A stretch of 64,000 nt of DNA from Chrysomallon squamiferum (lineage: Eukaryota > Animalia > Mollusca): positions 20,646,001 through 20,710,000 of the forward strand of contig CM022673.1 of assembly GCA_012295275.1 (NCBI GenBank), read 5' to 3'. A program made the position numbers and the translations under genes. The notes below the pieces were generated by a model. That model did not search any database. It saw nothing but the letters and a program-made list of their open reading frames with translations, and was not told where the DNA came from. Of this stretch, positions 9,162 to 57,762 are shown piece by piece (within the stretch, counting starts at the first letter, position 1; each line of letters starts with the position of its first letter).

Positions 9162-12100
9162 TTACTTGTCATACATTTCCAAAAAGCTCTTACAACATCT
9201 GTAACATTGTTCATAAACTTTTTCAAAGCCATCTATAGTCCCAGCCTGAAATTTTAAAAAGAGGACAAGATAATAATAATAAAACAACAAAAACAAATTA
9301 ATTAATAAGGAGAAAATGTAAATAAAAAACAACAAAAACAAATTAATTAATAAGGAGAAAATGTAAATAAAAAACAAGATAAAATCTAAATAAAATCTGC
9401 TACAAAATTGAAAATGCACTAAATAAAATCGTCTTCTTTTCCTATTTCATTTCTTCATTTATAAACATTAAGAAATTCTTCAACTTAATTCATAACTATG
9501 TGAATGCAAATGTTACCGATGTAATGTACTAACTGTTTATAAGAAATGATAATTTGAGCCTAGCAAAATAAAAAACAACTGATATAACCAAAGTATCATT
9601 TTAGTACACATAAAAAAGAATTAATTGATCATTAGTAATGCATGGAACAGCAGTTTTTACCTCTATTACAGAATCATATGTGTCATTTAATAATAATCAT
9701 TATTATAAATTTTATCTATTCACTGACTTCTGGAGTAAATATAATCATATCTAAATACAAATATGCAGTTATTCAACTACTATTAATCTGTCTTTCTCAC
9801 AAAATCATCCCCAAAACACACACAAACAGACAGACGAAATTGTAAGCAACATAACAGGAAAAATTTACTTACGAAGTAGGGATCGACTATAACTAATTCT
9901 TTCTGTGGATCAAATTCTCCTAATAACTTTATCTTTGCTTTGAATGGTGATTTTGGCTTAAAATCTTCAATGTCACTGGAAAAATAAAACTGACACAAAT
10001 AAACTCAAACAGAAAAGCAAGCATTATTATAGTAAACTATCTTGAAGAAACAAAAAACCCCACAATAACAACCATAACCTTTTATGCAATTAACCAGATT
10101 TTTATTACTATTTATTTCCAAAAGAATACATCACTGTCATAAGTCTGTGTTTTATGATAATTACTTGAGTCTATGACAAGAGAGAGAAAAAACCCAAGAG
10201 AATGTGTTCAAGCCACAATTTCAAAATATGAAGATGAAATTAAAATAAACTGAAGCATAAAGGACAGTGAATGTGCTGTGTTGCCTGGAAATGAACTAAA
10301 ATCTACATAATGTGATATAAATATGTAGCTAAAATACATTTTTCTTATTTTAAAGTTATAATTTGTATATAATTGTTGTTTTACTGTATAAAATGCAAAT
10401 AGATTATTAAACATTCACAACATGTAATAATTAATTGATTGAAATATGTTTACATTAAATACTAGTGTATTAAAGTATGAAAGCTTCATTTGTTTTCACT
10501 AACTTTAACTTGTGTTTGTTCTATACATGTGAATGTCACTTTTCCCTCGGAAATGCAAACTAATCTTGTAATAATCATTTATACATGGATGATAGAAAAT
10601 ATTATCCTTACATTTTCCTCTTTCATACTCATTACAAAACTGTTCTGGCACAAAAAAAAAGAAGAAAAAAGAAGGAAAATGAAGCCATCGTTATATTTCA
10701 CCAGATTGTTTATTATTTTCAAACTTTATTATTAGGAAACATTGTTCTTATCATATAAAAATTCATCTTTTAGTTTATAAAATGTATTTAGGCTATTTGT
10801 TATACAATACTACTGCTACATAACAGATAGTAGTTAACTCAGGGCTTCATACCCTTTGTAAATTCTAAGTACTTCCAGATTGTAAATTTAATTTTTGTTC
10901 CAGCTCCCTTCTTTGATTATAACTCGAATTTCTTTGTCATGCACAATTATACCTCAAATTCTGTTGGTCCATACCAAAAATATATTCAAATTTGTCAAAA
11001 TCATCTGTCTTGATCTGAAATACCCAAATGTATGCATCATTATTTAATTTAAAAAATTCTAAAGATAATGACTAATATAAATAGTGAAGAAGAAGAGGAA
11101 GAAGAAAACTAAATTTTGAAAACAAAACTAACAGCTAATAATAGTCACCATCATACAAATATCTATTCTTTAAACCTGCAACAAACAATTATTACTATGA
11201 AAGATAACAGGATTAAACTGTGTATTTAAATTAAAATCAAAATTAAAAAAGAAAAGAAATACCCTAAAACATAAGGATCTTGGATATATATTCTGTAATA
11301 ATCATTTAAGAAGTAAGTAATAAGAATGTAAACAAATAAAATATACAAGAAGCTAACTGAACCAACCTGTCTACCAGTGTGTTTATAACTTTTTATGCCA
11401 TTTTTTCTAAGTATCTTCATTGTTAATTCATGTGGAGGACTACCAATAAACCAGTCACCAATGCCAGCACTGTCAATATGCCACTGAAAAAAAGGTTTTA
11501 AACACTGTGTGTGGGTGTGTATATTTAAAACTATTATTATGAAAGGAAACACAAAAAACTATGTATAACCAAAAGTTCTTTTTAAAACTTAAAAAAAATA
11601 AAATAATAATATAATAATAATAATAATAGAACATAAACAACAATAAATATAATTTTAAATACTTAAACAATAGTTATTTTGAAAATATTTACCAATCATT
11701 CAAAAATAGTTAAGACAGTATACACATTTTACATATAACTGAAAGACGCTTCTCTTAATGAATCATGCATTTCACTGAAGGGAAATAACTCTCTACACTG
11801 TTTTCAAATTAAAGAAAGAAAATAATAATTAAAAAAAGAAAACATACATAACCTATTGTGAAATATTTTTTAAAATTTGTATTAGGTCAAAAGTGCATTT
11901 AATAAATGACAAATTTAATGTTTTTCAACTAATGGGAAATAGATGTATGGGGAGTCTAGGGAAGTCAATGCTGTGATACCTCACGGTACATACTAATAGC
12001 CCATAATTAATTCTTCAACTGAGAATCAATAATTTTCACATTTTCTGCTATCAAATTGTAAATGCTACATCATATTGGTCTATGATAATGTACTGTAACC

Positions 12101-14424: not shown

Positions 14425-20409
<5,985 letters not shown>

Positions 20410-24285: not shown

Positions 24286-26181
24286 ATGGCAGCGACTCTC
24301 AGAGAAAAACAGACAGCTGCTTTGCATCGCATGTTAAACTTCAATCAGCTTCCAACAAAACATTCATCTTCAGAACCACAATGGAAAGTTCTCGTCTACG
24401 ACAGGTTTGGCCAAGACATCATATCACCGCTTTTGACGGTGAAAGATTTACGCGACATAGGAGTAACTCTTCACTTGAATTTACATTCGGATCGAGACCC
24501 GATACCAGATGTACCGGCCATTTATTTCATTATGCCAACTGAAGAGAATATCCAGAGAATATGTCGAGATTTAAATAATCAGCTGTACGAATCATATTAT
24601 TTTAATTTCATATCTGCTGTATCGAGACAGAAACTAGAAGATATTGCAAGTGCCGCTATTCAGAGCAACAGTGTCGCTCAAGTATCGAAAATATTCGACC
24701 AGTATCTTAACTTCATATCACTCGAAGATGATCTGTTTATTCTTAGACACCAAGACAAAGATTCAATGTCTTATTACAGTATAAACCGTGGTGATGTTAA
24801 AGACAGTGAAATAGAACAAACAATGGATACGATTGTTGATAGTTTGTTTTCGGTGTTTGTTACACTCGGTGTTGTACCCATTATACGATGCCCTCGTGGA
24901 AATGCTGCAGAAATGATAGCAGAAAAATTGGACAAAAAACTTAGAGAAAATATCAGAGATGCCAGGAATAGTTTATTCGCAGCTGAAAGTGTTCCAGGAC
25001 AATTCAGTTTTCAGCGCCCACTTTTGGTGCTTCTTGATCGAAATATTGACCTAGCAACTATGCTGCACCATACTTGGACATACCAGGCATTAGCACATGA
25101 TGTTCTCAATCTAAAATTGAACAGAGTGGAGATAGAAGAAATATCAGAAGTAAGATCACAAGCAGGTTCACCAAGACCAGTGAAGAAGAAAAAGGTTTAT
25201 GACTTGAGCATAAATGATAAATTTTGGCAGACTCACAAAGGCAATCCTTTCCCAACAGTTGCTGAAGCTGTGCAGAAGGAATTAGATATTTATAGGACCC
25301 AGGAAGACGAAGTCAAGAAGCTCAAAGCAGCAATGGGTTTGGAAGGAGAAGATGATTCTGCTATCAGCATGCTGTCAGACAACACAGCAAAATTAACATC
25401 TGCTGTCAGTTCACTTCCTGAGTTGCTGGAGAAGAAACGCCTAATTGACATGCATACAAATATTGCCACAGCACTTCTAGACCACATCAAGAGCAGAAAA
25501 CTTGACATTTATTTTGAATCAGAGGAGAAAATGATGAGTAAAGCTCTTCTGGACAAGTCTTTAATGGATCTGATTTCTGATCCAGAAGCTGGAACTCCTG
25601 AAGATAAGGTACGATTATTCATCATTGCTCTCCTCTGTGGTCCACATATGTCTGAAGCTGAAATAGATCAATACTGTGTAGCTCTACAAGGAGCTAATTG
25701 TGATATCTCATCCATACAGTACATTCGACGATGGAAGGCTTATGCCAAAATGACTGCTGCTCCAAATCAGTATGGTGGTGGTGGCATTAGCACCATGAGT
25801 ATGTTTTCTACTCTGGTTTCGAAAGGATCTCAGTTTGTGATGGAAGGTGTGAAAAATCTTTCCGTAAAGCAGCACAGTCTTCCAACAACTCGTATTGTGG
25901 ATGCTCTGATGGAAATGAAGACAAATCAAGATATAGATGATTATAGATATTTTGATCCTAAACTTCTTCGTGCTGATAGTTCATCTGTGCCAAGAAACAG
26001 GAACCCTTACCAGGATGCTTTTGTTTTTCTGGTGGGCGGTGGTAACTACATTGAATACCAGAATCTTATGGACTATTCCAAACACAAGTCTGTTCCAAAG
26101 CGGATTGTTTATGGCTGCACTAATTTGATGAATATGTCAGATTTTCTGAAACAACTTTCTCACCTTGGTAATGAAATATGA
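24286..26181 (+). CDS. SCFD1: Sec1 family domain-containing protein 1 (Sly1 homolog, SM protein for ER-Golgi SNARE fusion), 631 aa, single exon
   Basis: Uninterrupted ORF with REKQTAALHRMLNFN...WKVLVYDRFGQDIISPLL...GVTLHLNLHSDRDPIPDVPAIYF...FQRPLLVLLDRNIDLATMLHHTWTYQALAHD...LPELLEKKRLIDMHTNIATALL...VGGGNYIEYQNL, recognisably Sly1/SCFD1. Confidence 0.97.
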   Translation: MAATLREKQTAALHRMLNFNQLPTKHSSSEPQWKVLVYDRFGQDIISPLLTVKDLRDIGVTLHLNLHSDRDPIPDVPAIYFIMPTEENIQRICRDLNNQLYESYYFNFISAVSRQKLEDIASAAIQSNSVAQVSKIFDQYLNFISLEDDLFILRHQDKDSMSYYSINRGDVKDSEIEQTMDTIVDSLFSVFVTLGVVPIIRCPRGNAAEMIAEKLDKKLRENIRDARNSLFAAESVPGQFSFQRPLLVLLDRNIDLATMLHHTWTYQALAHDVLNLKLNRVEIEEISEVRSQAGSPRPVKKKKVYDLSINDKFWQTHKGNPFPTVAEAVQKELDIYRTQEDEVKKLKAAMGLEGEDDSAISMLSDNTAKLTSAVSSLPELLEKKRLIDMHTNIATALLDHIKSRKLDIYFESEEKMMSKALLDKSLMDLISDPEAGTPEDKVRLFIIALLCGPHMSEAEIDQYCVALQGANCDISSIQYIRRWKAYAKMTAAPNQYGGGGISTMSMFSTLVSKGSQFVMEGVKNLSVKQHSLPTTRIVDALMEMKTNQDIDDYRYFDPKLLRADSSSVPRNRNPYQDAFVFLVGGGNYIEYQNLMDYSKHKSVPKRIVYGCTNLMNMSDFLKQLSHLGNEI

Positions 26182-38438: not shown

Positions 38439-38486
38439 CCGGAACTGGAAGTGACAGTGCGAGCACGTGACCTGTTGCTTGGATAC
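38439..38486 (+). promoter_or_regulatory. Tektin promoter: ETS sites (CCGGAA, GGAAGTG), E-box CACGTG and RFX X-box-like GTTGCTTGGATAC (38474-38486)
   Basis: Motifs ~120-165 nt upstream of the ATG; X-boxes are the established RFX elements of ciliary genes. Confidence 0.55.
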
Positions 38487-38603
38487 GGTTGTCGGGGCAT
38501 ACTGGTATAGCAGACGACATCACTATTTCGATTGAGTATAAATTGTCAACGTATTGACATCTGTTGTATGTTTACTTCTCTCTCAAGTTAAACAGAGGCA
38601 ACA

Positions 38604-48604
<10,001 letters not shown>

Positions 48605-50717
48605 GCGGTCATTTTTCTAAAAATTATTAACTGTTTTTTTTTTTATTTTTTTTTTTTTTTTATATTGTTTACTTTATTTTTTAATTTTGGAAATATCTTT
48701 ATCTTATTAATTGTTTTCATTGTTTCTTCTTTTTCAAACTGAACATTTGATTTCATTAACTTGTAACACTATTTAATAACCAGAATACGCGATGACGTAA
48801 ATAGTTTACTGTTATGCAGATATAGAAAATGGACAAGAAACAAACAACTGAATGACTGCATAACTTATATGAATATATATATCGTGAAGCTTATTTATCT
48901 TTTACTTTTTGCAATGATTGAAGTGTGATCTCTGTTAGACTATTCCAGAAAGCAAACAGACATGCTAGGTTTTCGTTTTGTAAAAATATCGTTGTAGTTA
49001 AGAAAAAGGTAAACAATGTTTTTGTTTTCGGATTTTAGTAGCACTATATTTATGACTGTGTGTGTGTGTGTGTGTGTGTTTTCTTATTAATAATAAATTC
49101 ATGAGAATATTAGAAATTTAATATTCACTATGATTTTTTTTTTTCTGATCTATTGCTCACAGGCGGTGTAATTATTTTAAAAGTCTGGCCCAGATGAGTG
49201 TAATTACTAGTTCTTGCCAATTATAACAGTCAGTATTACAATAATACGTTTTTCTTAGTGTTTTCTCCTGGTGCTGTGAGAGAGACTTTTCTATTTATCA
49301 TCATTTTTTTCTACTGTTGTTTATTAATCACACTGAATTTTTGTAAATTTAATTTTTTTTTTTTTTTTTTTTTTTTTTTGACACTTGATTGCTGTGATAT
49401 ATTTGTACAGTATTATTTGGAAGACATAGCTTTAACAATTTCGTATTATTTACTTATATTCTAAACGGTCCAAGATTCGTTTGATACTTAGCACTAAGGG
49501 ACAGAAACTGTCGTAGATGGATGCATGGCCCTTATTTTAAATTTATTTAATTAGTGCAAAACCTTATATTCCGATAAACAAGTTAGAGAATCATTTGTTT
49601 TCAGTCCAAAAATAAATGTTTTGCCTCCCGTACTGTCTAGAGGGGAAAGTCATATAGTTGCTAGGTATCAGCGAAAATACGAAAGATATTTAGAAACATC
49701 TTTGTAACATTTTCGATTTCTATTCTTATAGACACTTTTTGCAATACGCCGGAATCTTGTCAGACTTTTATATATCTTTATATATTTGGCTAGTATTAAC
49801 AAATTTTGTAGATTTTTATTGTACATTCCATTTTTTCATTTTTAACTATTTATCGGCGGTGTTTACCTTTATGTGTCACTGCTTGATAAACATGTACTTA
49901 TTTATTATATAGAAACACAAATCTAAATAATTATATATATATATATCTAAATATACACATAATTATAATATATATACTTTTTAATTTCCGGCGTGTATGC
50001 GCAAAATCTAATTTTACTTTAAAACCATATCAGTATTATTAGAATCTATTGTGTTAAGTAGATTTATTTATTTATTTATTATTATTATTATTATAATTTT
50101 TTTTTTTAGAGGAATGCATGTGGAACTTATTTTTGATTTTTGCTTGTGTTTTTTTTTTTTTTTTTTTTCAGAATGTAACTTGTACACAAACTTTTTCGTT
50201 AGTTCCAAATTTTCGTTAAGGATCTTTAAGAAATGAATCAGATTATTTACTCCAATCCAGTAAAATAATAAAAATTAATAATAATTATATTTAATTTGAA
50301 TGAAATATAAAAATTTAATTTCAAATTTTTATAATCAAATATTATATTCTTTTAATGGTCCACTGGCCTAATTTTCTAATTAATAAGGAAAGAAATAAGT
50401 AATATTAATAAAATGTAACATCAATTCTAAATGCTATAAAATGTATTGTAGTATTAAAAAGTCAAATTAAAAACAATTAAGAAATTGAAAATTAAGAAAT
50501 ATACACTTTAAGCTTGTTTTGTATATATGAGTGTGCGTTTTAATTTTGTTAATACAGGTTCCAGACTTACCATGCATTTATGCTTCTAGTGTAGTATTTC
50601 GCACAATAAATTTTTCGTTCACATTTTACTTGTTATTATTATTTCCCAGTTTTCATTATAACAAAGCATCATGTTTGTTGTAGATTTAAAAACAACAATA
50701 CGATAATAATAGTATTT

Positions 50718-50720
<3 letters not shown>

Positions 50721-50802
<82 letters not shown>

Positions 50803-50867
50803 GTCTCTTACTTTCTGTCTCTCTCTCTAGTCTCTTACTTTCTGTCTCTCTCTCTAGTCTCTTACTT

Positions 50868-50958
<91 letters not shown>
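50721..50958. repeat. (CT)n microsatellite with three embedded 27-bp units (tagtctcttactttctgtctctctctc)
   Basis: Read directly; gives the spurious LERETESKR x3 ORF. Confidence 0.9.
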
Positions 50959-50962
<4 letters not shown>

Positions 50963-51797
50963 GTCTGTCGCTATCTCTTCACATTCTCTCATTCTCTCAT
51001 ATTAACACCTTGATTTAAAATAGCTGACCTCATGGTACCACGATAATGCTAAATAGAAGTACAGAAGACATATTTATATAAAACTTTAAAAGTATTCTAT
51101 TTATTTATATATTTATTTTATTTTATTTATTTTTATTCATTCATTCATCCATTCTAAATTCAAAACAGATGATACAAAAGTTTATTCTTTTGACTTTTTA
51201 TTTATATATCTGATAAGTATTAAAAAGAGGCCCTAACTAGTAATATGCTGTTAGCTGTTACAAGCAATTATGTAACAGTATTTTTTCATATCTACTCATG
51301 AAGGTGACGGTTACACCTTTAAAAATAATCTGCAACATCAAATAGCGTTGTCTCTGAGCTTCTTTTTAATTCATTTTTGATCAAAAACTTTAAATGTTGC
51401 AGAGCTCACAAAAATGTCGTGGCTTTTTTCTTTTTTCTTTTTTCATAAAAGTATGGTTTTAATTTTTATCAGTCAGATTTATCAGTAATGTATATGTAAA
51501 AGTTGAAACTTTTCACTGAGATTAATAATTGCAAACTAATAGGTCAGATTTATAGTACTGAGCGTTTCAATCGCACAGTATTCCAGTTCATATCACGGTA
51601 TATCCGTGACGTAACTTTGTGACATTAATATTAGAGAGTGTGCGCACATAGCCGAAATAATAGTAAAGCACATTCAACAAAAACTATCTTTCGATAAAAT
51701 ATTTTCTGAATAATTATAATAAAAAGGTCATGTTAAAATTCCTTGTTGTTTACTGTTTGCTGTAAAGGTAATAATAATAATCGACAACAATCCCAGC

Positions 51798-51825
51798 TGA
51801 CGTCATTAACAATCTGATGACGTCA
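51798..51825. promoter_or_regulatory. Two perfect CRE palindromes TGACGTCA (51798-51805, 51818-51825) upstream of the half-tektin ATG
   Basis: Read directly; 20-bp start-to-start spacing; ~250 nt upstream of ATG 52071. Confidence 0.5.
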
Positions 51826-52665
51826 GGTGGAAACTTCTCTGCATGTAGTGTGTTATGGGGGATGCATGCTACGTATCCGCCATTGTTTCCTCTCCTGAAA
51901 GAATCTCCAGCAACATAAGTTCACAATACAATCGCAAGATCAACACATATCGGTTTCATCAGTTTGGGCAGTTTGTATATCGATAATCGTTCAGTCAGTA
52001 AATGAATTACAATAGACGTCGATAATAATAACGTTCTGAAAATTTACAGAAATTTCCCATTCCTTGCAAAATGAATCAGACTAGCAAGGAGACTGATCCT
52101 AATAAAAAATATGTTGTGTATCGCAGGAAAAAAAGTGTGACGTTTAATAACAACACAGGATTAAACAGCAGAGTACCAAGCAGCGAAAACGTTAACAGGT
52201 TCGTTTCTCTGAACAGAGTGATATCCTATTTGTTTGTCTATGGATGCATAGGATTTATGAAACATGCATGTTTATAAAATATAATAGCTGACAGATATTT
52301 TATAGTAGTGGACATGCACAGCCTGCTCGGAACATATATATGTACATAACTTAGCTTCACATTAACTCGAAAAACGTGACTGACTATCTGTGTTTGGGAG
52401 AGGATAAGTAATTAATTAATGTATACTAAGAATGCTTTAGGTATTTCCCTGTGGTAGATAAATATTTGTAAATACAGGTCCGACCACTTTCTTCTTCTTC
52501 GTCTTCTTAATAAATTATTTTTATAATAACAAAAACTTATTATTGTTGTTGTTGTTGTTGTTGATTAAAGATTTCAGACATCTGAGACGCCTAGGAAATT
52601 ATTTAATTATAAATGTAAAAAAAAAAAACTTCTGTTAAAATTAGAATATCTCTGAAGCTGTCTAT

Positions 52666-52702
<37 letters not shown>

Positions 52703-53768
52703 AGATACAGCAGCCCTTCATTGCAGGCCATGAAAAGTGAATCCACGAATCATCTACATGTTCCGAAAATAAAAAAATTATCGAAGCGAAACAGCTATAC
52801 AGCTAACGACAGAAAATTATCTGTTGAATCCGTCGAAAGCAGGTGCTTTTTTATTTGACATACATCAGTATGCTATTTAGTCTCTACAACAGTTATTTAC
52901 TTATCGGTTAATAGATTTGAAACAAGTCATAACAGAACGCTCGTCTGACCTGCGATGGTTCCGTGGTTCCAACCTTTTCAATTAGTCATTGCAGCTTTTT
53001 CTTGTAGCCGTCATTACTCTGACCTCTTTATTAAAATATTACTTTTGAAACAACAATTAGAAACATTTTCATTACTATTTTTGTCTTGTACATACTCAGA
53101 TACAGTATTACTTCGCTGAAAGCTGAACTTACAAATGTACCTACTATATCGGGACGATCCAACGTATCACGGAAGAATCACAGCAAGCAATCAGAAACTG
53201 ATATCAGACCGGTGAAGGAAACTCTGGAAACCAGGTGAGTCTTATCTAACACAGGGTTTTTGCACTGCAGTGTCTCTAATATCTATAATAACCATTAAAA
53301 GTGATGATTTATTTTAAAGTTTCTACTCAAAAAATGTTAAAAGCTATTTTTCATTCAGGATATTTTCTTTCTTTCTTTCTTTCTATTTCTGTTTTTCTTC
53401 TTTCCATTCTTTCTTCTTTTCTTCTTTGTCTTTCATCTTTCGCAGAAAGAATAAAGAAATCTCAGTGGATGAGACGCCGTTTGAAACAAAACACAGTGTT
53501 GAAGATGAAGATTCTCAGGGAAGTTTGCATCACCAGACATTGTGTTCTGGAAGACATGCCGTGGAAACACTGGATGACATGTAAATTGGCTTAAATTTCT
53601 TTTTACTGACAGTACACTGTTACACATTTTAGGTGTGAACCCATTGTTAAGAAAGGAATTTAATCATTATTGTTGACATAATTTTATAGTATTCAGTGAT
53701 TTAAAGTATATTAAATAAATAACAATAATAAATAGAAAATGCCACGTAACACCAATTTCTTATATATA

Positions 53769-53770
<2 letters not shown>

Positions 53771-53852
<82 letters not shown>
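53771..53852. repeat. (CT)n microsatellite
   Basis: Read directly. Confidence 0.95.
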
Positions 53853-53857
<5 letters not shown>

Positions 53858-55026
53858 TTACAAATACATCAGTCTTTTATATAAAAGGTTAGATTTATTT
53901 ATTATAAGTTCAGAGTATGTATATAATAGCCATTGTTCGTAAAATTATGAATTGATTTATAATAGAAAAAATAGAAAATACAGAATGAATTAAAATTAAT
54001 TGTGACAGTTAGATGATAAACTATAAGTTAAAGAATATATTTGTATTTAAAGGATGATAGAAAATGAAATAACATTAAAAAAAAAAAAAAAAAAAAACAA
54101 AAAACAAACAGTATAAAGTTGAAATTATCGTTGTAAAATGTGATATGAAATATTGCATAATCTTTAATAGTCAAACAGAATTAATATAATATTTATTAAA
54201 TATTATTTCTGTATCACTAGTTATCAAAATCAGAATAATCGTCGGCGTCTATATAGTTTCAGAACGCGCCATGTTCCAATGGTCGATGAAGAAACAAATT
54301 TAAAAGGTGATGGAGAAATAAACTCTGAAGATTTCAACACGTACGTTTTTCAGTAGTCGTGTCAGATAGTCTGCATATTGTGTGTACTATAACAGACAGT
54401 GCATGTTGATGCCTGTAAACAGATTATTTTAATGTTGTAAAATATTTATTTATTTATTTATTTATTTAAATATTTATTCATTAAATACAGTTTTCTTTAT
54501 TTTTTCTCTTTTTTTTAAATTATTTTTATTTTTATTATTATTTTTTTTTTTCTTGAGAAACGGACTTCCACTGCTGAACTGATTATTAAATATTGGTATT
54601 CATTTATTATGCTACTTTTTAAGAAATAATTAATTCTTGACTCCAGTTTTTTAATGTTTATTTTCTTTCAGGGACGCAGACCCGGGTCCGCTGTGTGCTG
54701 ACACCAGCCACACTGTCAACATGTCCACGATACTCAGAGAAGCCTCGCAACATCTCCGCGAGGAGATCGAGAGCTGCCTCAGGTCGTGCTTCGCCGAGAT
54801 GCTGCACAACTTTAACGTCGTCAACAACGCCTTCGATATGAGAATCAGAGAGACAGTTGATGCCCGCAACAAAATGGAGTTCCACTTTAAAAAGGTAAGT
54901 ACATTTACAGGTTGTCAGTGTTAGGATAAACAATTTGATTCTACAGAATTACAAACTGCTGATATTCTAAATGCCTAAACCTCAGTCGACAATAAAAGAA
55001 ACTATGTATAAATATATATATATATT

Positions 55027-55340
55027 TACGAACCTTTTGTAATATGACAGCACCTTCCTAAGAATTTGAAGAACTGATATATGATTGTATGGACCTGTTA
55101 TATAGTAATATATAATATATATTTAGCGCTTACAAATAAATAATTGTGATAATAAGTATTACTAAAAATATATATATATAAACAGTAATAAGCGGGCAAT
55201 AACAGACAAGCATTTATTCAATAAATTTTAGGTATTATATTATATATTAATAAAGGATAACTAACCCCACAGGTCCATACAGTCATAAGTCAGCTCTTCG
55301 AAATCTTTGGAAGGTGTTGTCGTGTTACCAAAGTTTCATA
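55027..55340. mobile_element. Foldback/MITE-like element with 72-bp imperfect inverted repeats (55027-55098 / 55269-55340)
   Basis: Left arm tacgaaccttttgtaatatgacagcaccttcctaagaatttgaagaactgatatatgattgtatggacctgt aligns without gaps to the reverse complement of the right arm (59/72 identical by manual count). Both outer ends are TA and the spacer is AT-rich and non-coding. Confidence 0.7.
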
Positions 55341-56370
55341 TGAAGAATTAAAAACAATTACATTGAGGTACATGTATGTAAAAATGGTTATTAGTTCGTA
55401 CTTTCTTTTAAAGACTAAGTCATAACTTTCTTTTATGTCGATTATTAAATTTACTTTAAAAAAAGAAAAAAAAAATCATTTCACCTTTCTCTACCAGATT
55501 GTACAAGAGATCTTCGACATGGAGATGAATATTCAGAGTTTAAATGAAGCAATTCAAACCACCGAACAGCGAATGAAGAAACTAAGACGTGCCTGGAGGA
55601 AAGGTGTAGTAACAACAACGTGAACGTCTCTCACAGTGACGTGAATGATTTGTAAGATTTTTGTCTTATTGTTTTTATCAAGTAAATAGTTTAACATCAT
55701 CCTTGTATCTTCGTTGAATGTGATCTTATTTAGAAATCATTTTATTAACTGTTGCAGGCATAATATAAATTTTTAGTGCAAAATCAGCTACTGCTATAGC
55801 TGCTGCTGATGCTGCTAATGATGATGACAATGATCTGATGTTACCACTGGGGCTACTATCATCACGATATTTCTATCTGTTTTTTTATGACTTTTAACTG
55901 TTGAAAATGAAATGGGTTCAGATTAAACTTTCAGTAATGTTTTCATTATTATTTTTAATACGCACAGCTGGACGGAAACAAGATGGCAGTGTAGTAATTC
56001 CTGCTATCCTGATTTAATTATATTTATATGTATATATATATATATATATAGTCATTCTGTTTTTCTTTATTCTCAGTTTGCATTCTGAGCTGAACGAATT
56101 GCGCCAGTCACTTACAATTCTGAAAGAAAAACTGAAGAGTTCGGAACTCAGTCTGGACAGACTTCAAAATATCAGAAGTAAACTGGAGAAAGATATCGCC
56201 ATTAAGAATACCAGCATCAAGATCGACTTGCAGACATGTATGGGCATGCGTCAAAAGTTCCCCATGGAAATCAGAATTGGGTCAGAAATAAAAATACTGG
56301 ATGATAGTAATCAGAATAATTACATACGTATAATGTAAATAATTGAAATGCGGATTGATTATGTTTTTAG

Positions 56371-56484
56371 TTATGTAGAAATTATGTTCTTAATTATAAG
56401 AAATTATGTTCTTAATTATGTAGAAATTATGTTCTTAATTATGTAGAAATTATGTTCTTAATTATGTGGAAATTATGTTTTTGA
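56371..56484. repeat. Minisatellite, ~23-bp unit (ttatgtagaaattatgttcttaa) x5, in the 3' UTR of the half-tektin
   Basis: Five consecutive near-identical units read directly. Confidence 0.9.
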
Positions 56485-57762
56485 TTATTTCACTTAGATA
56501 CGAAAACGCAGTGCAATAACAGTTTTATTTGGTTATTAGTTTAGTTATGTTGTTGACATTTGATATAAGCAATTAAAATCAGTAATGTATACATAATACG
56601 TAATATTATTAAATGGAAGTCAATAATAATGCTAAAATAATAATTACGAGGTTTATAATCATTGTACAGAATAATGTACTATAATGCTGAAATATTTATT
56701 AGTTTGGTTTTTGTTAAATATAACTAAAAGAAAATTTAAATTATCAATGAATTATAATTGTCAAATATTTATTATTTTTCCTTTTGTTAAATATAACAAT
56801 AAAGTAAATTTAAATTACTGTAGAAGTAGAAATATTAATTTATTGTTGTCTTCTTCATTTTATTTTAATTTGAAAAAGAATCAAACAAAAACAAAATTAT
56901 GCTCTTGCTGATTAAATTAAATTGTAATTTAGCAATAACTAGTTTGTAGTTATTATTTTTATTTTTTGTTGCGATCTGACTTTATTATTGTTTTGCAAGC
57001 TGTGGTTTAGGGCGGACCTTGATTGTGAACTGTGTCAAGGGATATTTTAGTAATCAAAGCACTACTTGGATGGATGACGTTATAAATAGTTTATGAAGAT
57101 TTTTTCCAAGGGCTATTCTTGGTCAAGTAGGCCTGTTTGAATAGCAGTTACTTTCTTTTTACTCAACATGTAAGATCACCTTCTTTCTTTCCTTCATCTA
57201 GATCATCTTCGTATTATTATTATTTCATAAAAATCTCAACAAAGACTTTACTTGGCGCCACATTTAATTATTTTTAACGATTACTTTCGGTTTTATTCGA
57301 AGAAAAGAGTTGTTTCCCTTTGAACGTTTTTTTTTTAGTGAAAAAAAAAAGAATAAAAAAGTAACCATATTTTCATGGAAAGAGAAACTTGAGCATAAAC
57401 GAAGGCTCATCCGTCGTTATATTTGGTGCATTAAATCATCAACATTTTGCAGGAATAACTCGAAAACATCACAGAATACAGCTCTGTAAATATTATCGCT
57501 AACGATGTTTTCACGGCAGGGAGAATACAAAAAGTTATAAAGATGAAGGATATATTATAGTGCAGCTGACAACCAAGATCACGCAACGATCATTTCAAAA
57601 CTACTCGCTATACAATACCTGGTACCAAGATATTTATCAATCTTTATTTTTTAATTTCACTTCATGTTTTCTCAACCTGCAAGTTTATTATAGTTAATTA
57701 TTCCACTTTTCTATAATAATAATTTTAAAAATTAAAAAATAAAAAATAAAAATAAACTAAAC

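What the first reader, a model, noticed from the sequence alone, without database searches (positions are those of the whole stretch)
52071..56338. Chimeric 'half-tektin': C-terminal tektin half fused to a new low-complexity N-terminus
Seen: 3.5 kb after the tektin stop, paralogues of exons 9-11 keep the same intron positions and phases, and the preceding exon ends caacac|gtacgtt exactly like tektin exon 8. The N-terminal tektin coiled coil (exons 4-7) is absent. In its place are ~200 aa of Ser/Thr/Lys/Glu-rich sequence (basic first, acidic later) across five exons that join in one open frame. Inference: partial tandem duplication plus N-terminal remodelling made a new protein that could cap, decorate or interfere with tektin filaments, typical of fast-evolving sperm proteins. 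Together with the exon 5a/5b switch, the locus looks like a small system for diversifying tektins.
Basis: partly seen in the sequence, partly recalled or inferred. Interest (0 to 1): 0.8.

Follow-up and report, generated by a model that had tools for sequence, protein, structure and literature searches.

The report
Expressed half-tektin lacking its filament clamp
Next to a normal tektin (cilia and sperm-tail filament) gene lies a spliced partial copy that keeps the two rear helices but has lost the loop that locks tektins end to end; its front end likely grew from repeated copies of one tektin exon, and it would probably act as a non-polymerising filler in the tektin bundle.

Summary
The gene is real. 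Exons F-H (54672-56338) copy the last three exons of the neighbouring tektin-3/5-like gene, with the same phases and 97/196 identical residues. The window has a one-base frameshift in exon G. Contigs of 2 of 3 RNA runs laid, and of one intron-bearing run, carry the extra base, and the RNA contigs splice E-F-G-H. dN/dS is about 0.23. The N-terminus is not foreign and not low-complexity. Exons A-E all end in phase 2 like tektin exon 7, and A-D together match exon 7 in DNA (z 6.4, 0 of 2000 shuffles; 11 control exons z<=1.4). The match is firm for B, moderate for A, indirect for C and D, unproven for E, and absent at protein-family level. Family-invariant residues survive in the helices (16 of 17) but not at the 2A tip/L2 clamp loop (3 of 11). 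Best reading: a partial duplicate with internal exon amplification, likely a clamp-less tektin-bundle filler. Not shown: the A-D junctions, tissue, protein, orthologues.

The parts
51712..52070 (+). putative 5' region; the start is the inferred 5' end of the longer RNA contig if the UTR is unspliced
   Evidence: 973 nt lie upstream of exon F in the X1 contig against 614 nt for A-E; in-frame stops precede the ATG; 7 upstream ATGs make a spliced UTR possible.
52071..52198 (+). exon A, first coding exon, phase 0-2; its ATG aligns with the first Met of tektin exon 7, and AA stands where exon 7 has its acceptor AG
   Evidence: DNA match to exon 7: 6 of 10000 shuffles, 31 of 3000 with ends trimmed. 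Junction not seen in RNA.
52705..52842 (+). exon B, 138 nt, phase 2-2, decayed copy of tektin exon 7
   Evidence: 0 of 10000 shuffles, 0 of 3000 trimmed, best non-self match of 482 peaks in the window. Junction not seen in RNA.
53100..53234 (+). exon C, 135 nt, phase 2-2, likely exon-7 copy
   Evidence: matches B (z about 3) and the 3' end of D (17/30, p about 0.001); alone against exon 7 not significant
53446..53580 (+). exon D, 135 nt, phase 2-2, acidic, likely exon-7 copy
   Evidence: 380 of 10000 shuffles, 230 of 3000 trimmed; 3' end matches C and exon 7
54263..54340 (+). exon E, phase 2-2; acceptor uncertain (54221, 54257 and 54263 are all in frame)
   Evidence: its last 30 nt are the loose end before F in both RNA contigs; shares donor context with exon 7 but has no significant alignment to it
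54672..54894 (+). exon F: end of L12 and N-terminal part of helix 2A
   Evidence: Pfam Tektin 206-269, E 2.8e-11; covered and spliced in RNA; predicted helix at residues 11-73
55498..55651 (+). exon G: end of helix 2A, decayed L2 loop, start of 2B
55578..55580 (+). one base missing in the window (frameshift); present in X1, X2 and X5
   Evidence: table 4
56077..56338 (+). exon H: helix 2B, new tail and stop
   Evidence: Pfam Tektin 323-383, E 2.8e-14; its first 30 nt are the loose end behind G in both RNA contigs
56339..56535 (+). 3' UTR, extent inferred from the X1 contig length; an ATTAAA follows at 56572
38604..48604 (+). parent tektin-3/5-like gene, 469 aa, 10 coding exons
   Evidence: open model; 56% identical over 404 aa to Haliotis asinina tektin-3-like
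46797..46940 (+). parent exon 7 (144 nt, phase 2-2): second half of helix 1B plus the L12 linker; inferred source of the N-terminal exons
42866..43799 (+). alternative 86-nt exons 4a (42866-42951) and 4b (43714-43799) of the parent
   Evidence: both open and phase 1-0; 52/86 nt and 16/28 aa identical; RNA use not tested

Best explanation
A partial tandem copy of the neighbouring tektin gene is spliced and in frame across its last four exons in RNA from two runs, keeps helices 2A and 2B and has lost the conserved L2 loop; it likely forms a separate 417-residue protein whose front end probably arose by repeated copying of tektin exon 7, and it would most likely dock onto tektin bundles by helix packing without extending a filament. 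Shown: homology and phases of F-H, splicing E-F-G-H, the extra base in three samples, low dN/dS, fast change on this branch, selective loss of invariant residues at the 2A tip and L2. Inferred: (1) the duplication covered exons 7-10; (2) the first Met of exon 7 became the start; (3) the symmetric phase 2-2 exon was multiplied and decayed into a disordered, basic-then-acidic tail; (4) exons A-D are on the same mRNA; (5) with both clamp loops (L12 and L2) gone, the 2A/2B hairpin fills gaps or bridges in the bundle, as the non-filament Tektin-5 copies of mammalian sperm do, with the tail as tether or spacer.
For: Splice joint 54894-55498 (GT..AG), with loose ends equal to the end of E and the start of H, in X1 (1810 nt contig) and X2 (1543 nt); extra base in X1, X2 and X5. 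Pairwise dN 0.39, dS 1.70, ratio 0.23, bootstrap upper bound 0.39. Unique changes: parent 10 against copy 42, and 7 against 45, with two outgroups. Sister to the neighbour in the tree (83/79), branches 0.98 against 0.09; grouping with the Haliotis clade is rejected, p-AU 0.0009. Exon-7 origin: joint z 6.4, 0 of 2000, 11 other exons z<=1.43, stable under 4 other scorings; z 4.8, 0 of 3000 with ends trimmed; identity by codon position 88/174, 102/178, 71/177; 40 Sec1 pieces as null, max z 2.0. The same stretch alone differs between two equal-length Haliotis asinina isoforms (23 differences, all in aa 262-308). Invariant residues kept: 16 of 17 in helix bodies, 3 of 11 at 2A tip/L2, 1 of 2 at 2A start; the parent keeps 28 of 30 (p 0.0004). 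Literature: L12 clamps L2 of the next monomer (PMC8595878); in non-filament Tektin-5 copies L12 and L2 are disordered and the front of 1A is unresolved (10.1101/2022.09.29.510157).
Against: X3 showed no cover. Both RNA holders are one study and contigs only, tissue unknown. A protein profile of the exon-7 stretch from 11 tektins finds nothing in A-E (179-440 of 500 shuffles score as high). C and D together are not significant with trimmed ends (262 of 3000), and E shows nothing. dS is near saturation (141 of 2000 bootstrap replicates saturated), and since change is one-sided the ratio on this branch is probably nearer 0.4. Four of 7 variable codons change the amino acid. The region borders for the 16/17 against 3/11 contrast were partly set after seeing the data; L2 alone gives 0 of 4 against 20 of 26, p 0.008. 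Sisterhood with the neighbour is not forced (p-AU 0.17). No orthologue was found. There is no protein or localisation evidence.
Confidence: 0.5

Rival explanations
1. It caps or poisons tektin filaments: its 2A/2B hairpin accepts the 1A overhang of a full tektin but offers no 1A to continue the chain.
For: The two-helix C-terminal end that receives the neighbour's single N-terminal helix (PMC10842264) is kept: 28/54 in the 2A C-half and 35/63 in 2B.
Against: The L2 loop that secures this joint is lost (2/10 identical; 0 of 4 invariants). The N-half of 2A is also conserved (23/36), which a pure cap does not need.
Confidence: 0.15
2. It is a relaxed or decaying duplicate that is still transcribed but does little now, and the window's frameshift is a real null allele.
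For: The window copy is frameshifted. The branch is about ten times longer than the parent's. Four of 7 variable codons are non-synonymous. The N-terminal exons keep no family signal.
Against: Introns share no similarity (0 of 7 pairs) and dS is about 1.7, yet the frame is open in three other samples. Helix invariants are kept 16 of 17. A one-base loss in an A-run is a typical assembly error (general knowledge).
Confidence: 0.15
3. The downstream exons are an alternative 3' cassette of the tektin gene itself, spliced onto tektin exon 6.
For: Tektin exons 1-6 join E-F or B-E-F without a stop. The parent already has alternative twin exons, and a Haliotis tektin varies only in the exon-7 stretch between isoforms. 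The lengths could fit (656 nt for exons 1-6).
Against: X1 and X2 hold 0.31 and 0.30 of the words of 47200-56400, while the half-gene exons give at most 0.14, so the tektin 3' end is probably expressed too. Graph contigs should then break at the fork within 108-516 nt of F, but they run 841-973 nt (inference about assembler behaviour). Exon A has an ATG where the acceptor stood, with in-frame stops upstream.
Confidence: 0.1
4. The half unit polymerises on its own with an 8-nm step, its free 2A N-half slotting into the 2A/2B hairpin of the next copy.
For: The tektin halves are homologous (internal matches). Both the single-helix part (23/36) and the hairpin (28/54, 35/63) are conserved, and exon F is predicted as one long helix.
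Against: The linkers reported to stabilise head-to-tail contacts (PMC8595878) are lost. All tektins in that study repeat at 16 nm.
Confidence: 0.1

Closest known systems
Spiralian tektin-3/5 (Pfam PF03148; closest named relative here Haliotis asinina tektin-3-like, XP_067673209.1)
   Same: Helices 2A and 2B, the LExDxxxKxxxxxIDxxxC motif of 2B (motif from PMC6357514), exon structure; tektin-3/5 is the most often duplicated tektin in spiralians.
   Different: No helix 1A or 1B, L2 nonapeptide lost, about 205 residues of decayed exon-7 copies in front; the duplicates described in the sections read are full-length.
Non-filament Tektin-5 copies in mammalian sperm doublets (bovine TEKT5-D to G; mouse broken and bent bundles)
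   Same: Used without the L12/L2 clamp; L12, L2 and the front of 1A are disordered or unresolved; partial copies fill broken bundles.
   Different: Those are conformers of a full-length protein; here the loss is fixed in the gene. Localisation is untested.
Partial duplication with internal amplification (type case: notothenioid AFGP from trypsinogen; PMC3449122)
   Same: An incomplete copy of one parent gene lengthened by repeated copying of a piece of that parent.
   Different: The amplified unit is a whole symmetric exon of about 140 nt that has decayed, not a 9-bp unit; half of the parent fold is kept.
Drosophila Sdic (PMC3449122)
   Same: A tandem incomplete duplicate of a microtubule-related gene, keeping the latter half with a refashioned front.
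   Different: Sdic is a true chimera of two genes and testis-specific; here there is one source gene and the tissue is unknown.

Membership tests
Tektin (PF03148) | Pfam Tektin match above the gathering score | tested here: met
   F 43.2 bits and H 53.1 bits against cut-off 34.3
Tektin (PF03148) | Complete rod of about 380 aa with helices 1A, 1B, 2A, 2B | tested here: not met
   only profile positions 206-383; no remnant of exons 1-6; helix map
Tektin (PF03148) | Conserved nonapeptide / LxxRxxRxxxE/DLxxD motif between 2A and 2B | tested here: not met
   L2 2/10 identical to the parent; R422, E426, C428 and D430 (P0052 numbering) all changed
Tektin (PF03148) | LExDxxxKxxxxxIDxxxC motif at the end of helix 2B | tested here: met
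   present in exon H
Tektin (PF03148) | Forms 16-nm head-to-tail filaments in the axoneme | not testable with these tools
   needs biochemistry or cryo-EM
Tektin-3/5 class | Groups with tektin-3/5 sequences | tested here: inconclusive
   best PDB hits tektin-3 for F and tektin-4/3 for H; in a starred clade with the neighbour and flatworm sequences named tektin 5 / tektin-3; A or B subclass not resolved
Partial duplicate with internal amplification | Only part of one parent ORF copied | tested here: met
Partial duplicate with internal amplification | Extra coding sequence derives from repeats of a parent segment | tested here: met
   met for B and A; indirect for C and D; not shown for E; no protein-profile signal
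Partial duplicate with internal amplification | Ancestral and derived copy fixed with an outgroup genome | tested here: inconclusive
   only distant protein outgroups; no genome of a close relative held
Chimeric duplicate (two or more donor sequences) | Unique exons come from a second donor locus | tested here: not met
   the only donor found is the parent's exon 7; the rest of the genome could not be searched
Duplicated pseudogene | Fixed disabling change | tested here: not met
   the frameshift is absent in 3 of 3 samples that cover it

The most novel reading that the evidence does not exclude
A natural, selected half-rod tektin: evolution has hard-wired in one gene the clamp-less, non-polymerising state that mammalian Tektin-5 reaches only by changing shape, or has built an 8-nm tektin unit, and has made its disordered tail by serially copying the exon that used to encode the clamp.
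Probability: 0.35. Interest if true: 0.7.

Novelty: new variant of a known kind. Interest (0 to 1): 0.5.

Why it matters
Tektin helix lengths and the 16-nm repeat are described as conserved throughout evolution (PMC8595878). The main family survey treated short sequences as partial (PMC6357514), so true half-tektins could have been overlooked. An expressed, constrained half-rod that lost just the clamp loop is a ready natural test of which surfaces tektins need for bundling as opposed to polymerising. It is also a traceable case of a folded-domain exon turning into a disordered tail by serial duplication. The value is limited for now: one species, no tissue, no protein evidence.

Tried and rejected
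Orthologue searches found nothing: exon B, longer proteins; exon H, longer and near length; exon H against 50% representatives gave 92 ordinary tektin hits, best identity 52%; metagenome contigs 0 of 368 candidates; ESM Atlas had no usable hit for exon B. These collections hold few animal genomes, so this is weak evidence. No whole genome is held. A family protein HMM of the exon-7 stretch gave no signal in A-E. Origin of A-D from other tektin exons was rejected (z<=1.43), as was in-place decay of a full-length copy: exon lengths and phases do not fit exons 1-6 and no remnant is found. Paralogous introns show no similarity. FoldIndex calls the N-terminus disordered (-0.12) but also scores the parent's coiled coil negative (-0.07), so it is weak. 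Two TGACGTCA sites (51798, 51818) and a TGTTTAC (51747) are consensus matches only. The complex predictor was not available, so head-to-tail pairing of half units was not modelled. Scan look-ups by place and by sequence were empty. Paper searches listed no half-tektin or tektin exon-duplication paper; the supplements of PMC6357514, which may list short gastropod sequences, were not read.
Full report
Setting. The window is AT-rich animal DNA (GC 24-37%); no whole genome is held. A 10-exon gene at 38604-48604 gives an open 469-aa tektin with either of two 86-nt fourth exons. Its closest named relative among my hits is Haliotis asinina tektin-3-like, 56% over 404 aa. I infer a spiralian, probably a mollusc; the species was not determined.

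Observation. Three downstream exons (F 54672-54894, G 55498-55651, H 56077-56338) match tektin exons 8-10 in phase and length, at 136/223, 91/155 and 154/232 nt. Read with X at the break, the protein is 417 aa and aligns without gaps to tektin 266-461 at 97/196. Pfam Tektin covers profile positions 206-383 only; none of the 5 N-terminal exons hits any family. No trace of tektin exons 1-6 lies downstream (best E 3.1). In the window, G lacks one base, so the model stops at codon 321.

Expression and the frameshift. Five runs hold the region, four on record as RNA, from 2 studies. I laid 4 of the 5 on 54620-55770 only. X1 (1810-nt contig, depth 50) and X2 (1543 nt, depth 10) cover F and G, skip the 603-nt GT..AG intron, and have loose ends identical to the last 30 nt of E and the first 30 nt of H. 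X3 had no cover. X1, X2 and the intron-bearing X5 each carry one extra base at 55578-55580, so the frame is open in 3 of 3 covering samples. The window has an assembly error or a null allele; X5 may be the window's own source and so not independent. Upstream of F the contigs run 973 and 841 nt, against 614 nt for A-E from the ATG, which fits A-E plus a UTR. Junctions A to E were not observed, and tissue is not given.

Selection. Against the parent, F-H show dN 0.39, dS 1.70 and ratio 0.23; the bootstrap upper bound is 0.39, and 141 of 2000 replicates were saturated. A copy neutral from birth beside a frozen parent would give about 0.5 (inference). Change is one-sided: 42 against 10 and 45 against 7 unique residues, branches 0.98 against 0.09, so the ratio on the copy's branch is probably near 0.4. 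The copy is sister to its neighbour at 83/79. Joining it to the Haliotis clade is rejected (p-AU 0.0009), but excluding it from a neighbour+P0012 pair is not (0.17). The tree used 16 of the 103 fetched proteins, mostly long ones covering the C-half. Introns share no similarity (0 of 7 pairs). The 8 coding differences among samples touch 7 codons, 3 silent and 4 not.

Origin of the N-terminus. A-E end in phase 2, and B-E are symmetric (138, 135, 135, 78 nt), like tektin exon 7 (144 nt, phase 2-2). Against exon 7, codon shuffles reached the observed DNA score in 6 (A), 0 (B), 1154 (C), 380 (D) and 8322 (E) of 10000. A-D jointly gave z 6.4, 0 of 2000, while 11 other exons gave z of at most 1.43, and 4 other scorings agreed. 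B is exon 7's best match among 482 peaks in the window; A, D, C and E rank 13, 29, 75 and 358. With ends trimmed, B holds (0 of 3000), A weakens (31), C and D are not significant alone or together (262 of 3000), and the joint test stays at 0 of 3000. Identity is highest at second codon positions (88/174, 102/178, 71/177), and 40 Sec1 pieces gave z of at most 2.0. C links to B, and D to C at the 3' end. The alignment puts the B-D splice sites on exon 7's, and A's ATG on exon 7's first Met. Against this, a protein profile of the same stretch from 11 tektins finds nothing in A-E: the signal survives only in DNA against the neighbour. The tail is not low-complexity (entropy 3.93 against 3.95-4.00) and runs basic to acidic; disorder is likely but weakly tested. 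Two Haliotis isoforms differ only in this stretch, which suggests the exon has been duplicated elsewhere too.

What is kept and lost. A model of Haliotis P0052, transferred by the ungapped alignment, places in the parent: 1A 70-177, 1B 188-246, L12 247-270, 2A 271-378, L2 379-388, 2B 389-451. Exon 7 is thus late 1B plus L12. The copy keeps 2A (3/18 in the first residues, then 23/36 and 28/54) and 2B (35/63), but L2 only 2/10. Exon F alone is predicted helical from residue 11 to 73. Of 30 invariant or nearly invariant C-half positions from 17 tektins, the parent keeps 28; the copy keeps 16 of 17 in helix bodies, 3 of 11 at the 2A tip/L2, and 1 of 2 at the 2A start. Fisher p is 0.0004 with borders partly set afterwards; L2 alone gives 0.008.

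How it likely works. In solved filaments, monomers stack every 16 nm through helical overhangs, and L12 clamps L2 of the next monomer (PMC8595878, passages and section 17). In bovine sperm, Tektin-5 copies that do not form filaments have disordered L12 and L2 and an unresolved front of 1A (10.1101/2022.09.29.510157, passages). Mouse broken bundles include partial copies (PMC10842264, passages; variant conformers also in 10.1101/2023.05.30.542832, passages). The copy has lost these same parts while keeping the helices. I therefore infer a clamp-less hairpin that packs into the tektin bundle as filler or bridge, with a charged tail as tether (overall 0.5). Rivals are a cap or poison (0.15), a decaying duplicate (0.15), an alternative 3' cassette of the parent (0.1; in frame, but contigs should break at the fork if the parent's 3' end is co-expressed) and an 8-nm self-polymer (0.1). 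The complex predictor was not available, so binding is unmodelled.

Comparison with what is known. It works like a tektin C-half but fails two defining tektin features, the full rod and the L2 motif. By origin it fits partial duplication with internal amplification rather than chimerism (PMC3449122, passages). Tektin-3/5 duplications are common in spiralians, and the survey assumed short sequences were partial (PMC6357514, abstract and sections 6, 14, 22; supplements not read). PMC9803972 (passages) did not bear on it. Nine paper searches listed no half-tektin. Six orthologue searches were empty of orthologues. The scan has no note on this DNA; a word search gave five other partial duplicates, one with repeated new exons (e1-9997176, unchecked).

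Verdict. A real, spliced and probably functional derived gene, a new variant of a known kind. Interest 0.5.

Noticed in passing
window 24287-26181 (+): Intronless Sec1-family ORF of about 630 aa (Pfam Sec1 E 1e-135; sequence). It looks like SCFD1/Sly1, whose animal genes I recall as multi-exon, so it may be a retrogene.
   Followed up: partly
window 42866-42951 and 43714-43799 (+): Twin 86-nt tektin exons, both in frame, 762 nt apart, 52/86 nt identical; likely mutually exclusive. Unnamed P0086 is closer to 4a (17 against 14 of 28), Haliotis to 4b (16 against 13).
   Followed up: partly
P0052 and P0099, aa 262-308: Two equal-length Haliotis asinina tektin-3-like isoforms differ only in the stretch matching exon 7, which suggests a duplicated alternative exon 7 in another tektin-3/5 gene. 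The gene structure was not seen.
   Followed up: partly
window 19987-20409 (+): Exon of a LIX1 (limb expression 1) family gene, E 1.6e-72.
   Followed up: no
window 11226-11558 (-): Exon of a low-molecular-weight phosphotyrosine phosphatase gene, E 6e-06.
   Followed up: no
window 51747-51825: A TGTTTAC and two TGACGTCA palindromes 20 nt apart (2 of 5 in the window) upstream of exon A; an X-box-like site at 38474 and TGTTTAC at 38569 upstream of the tektin ATG (motif names recalled).
   Followed up: no
window 55534, 55578-55580, 55592: The window differs from all three covering samples at three places within 60 nt of exon G: either a divergent haplotype or locally poor consensus.
   Followed up: partly
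window 56358-56488: 23-nt tandem repeat, 5.7 copies, in the inferred 3' UTR of the half-tektin.
   Followed up: no
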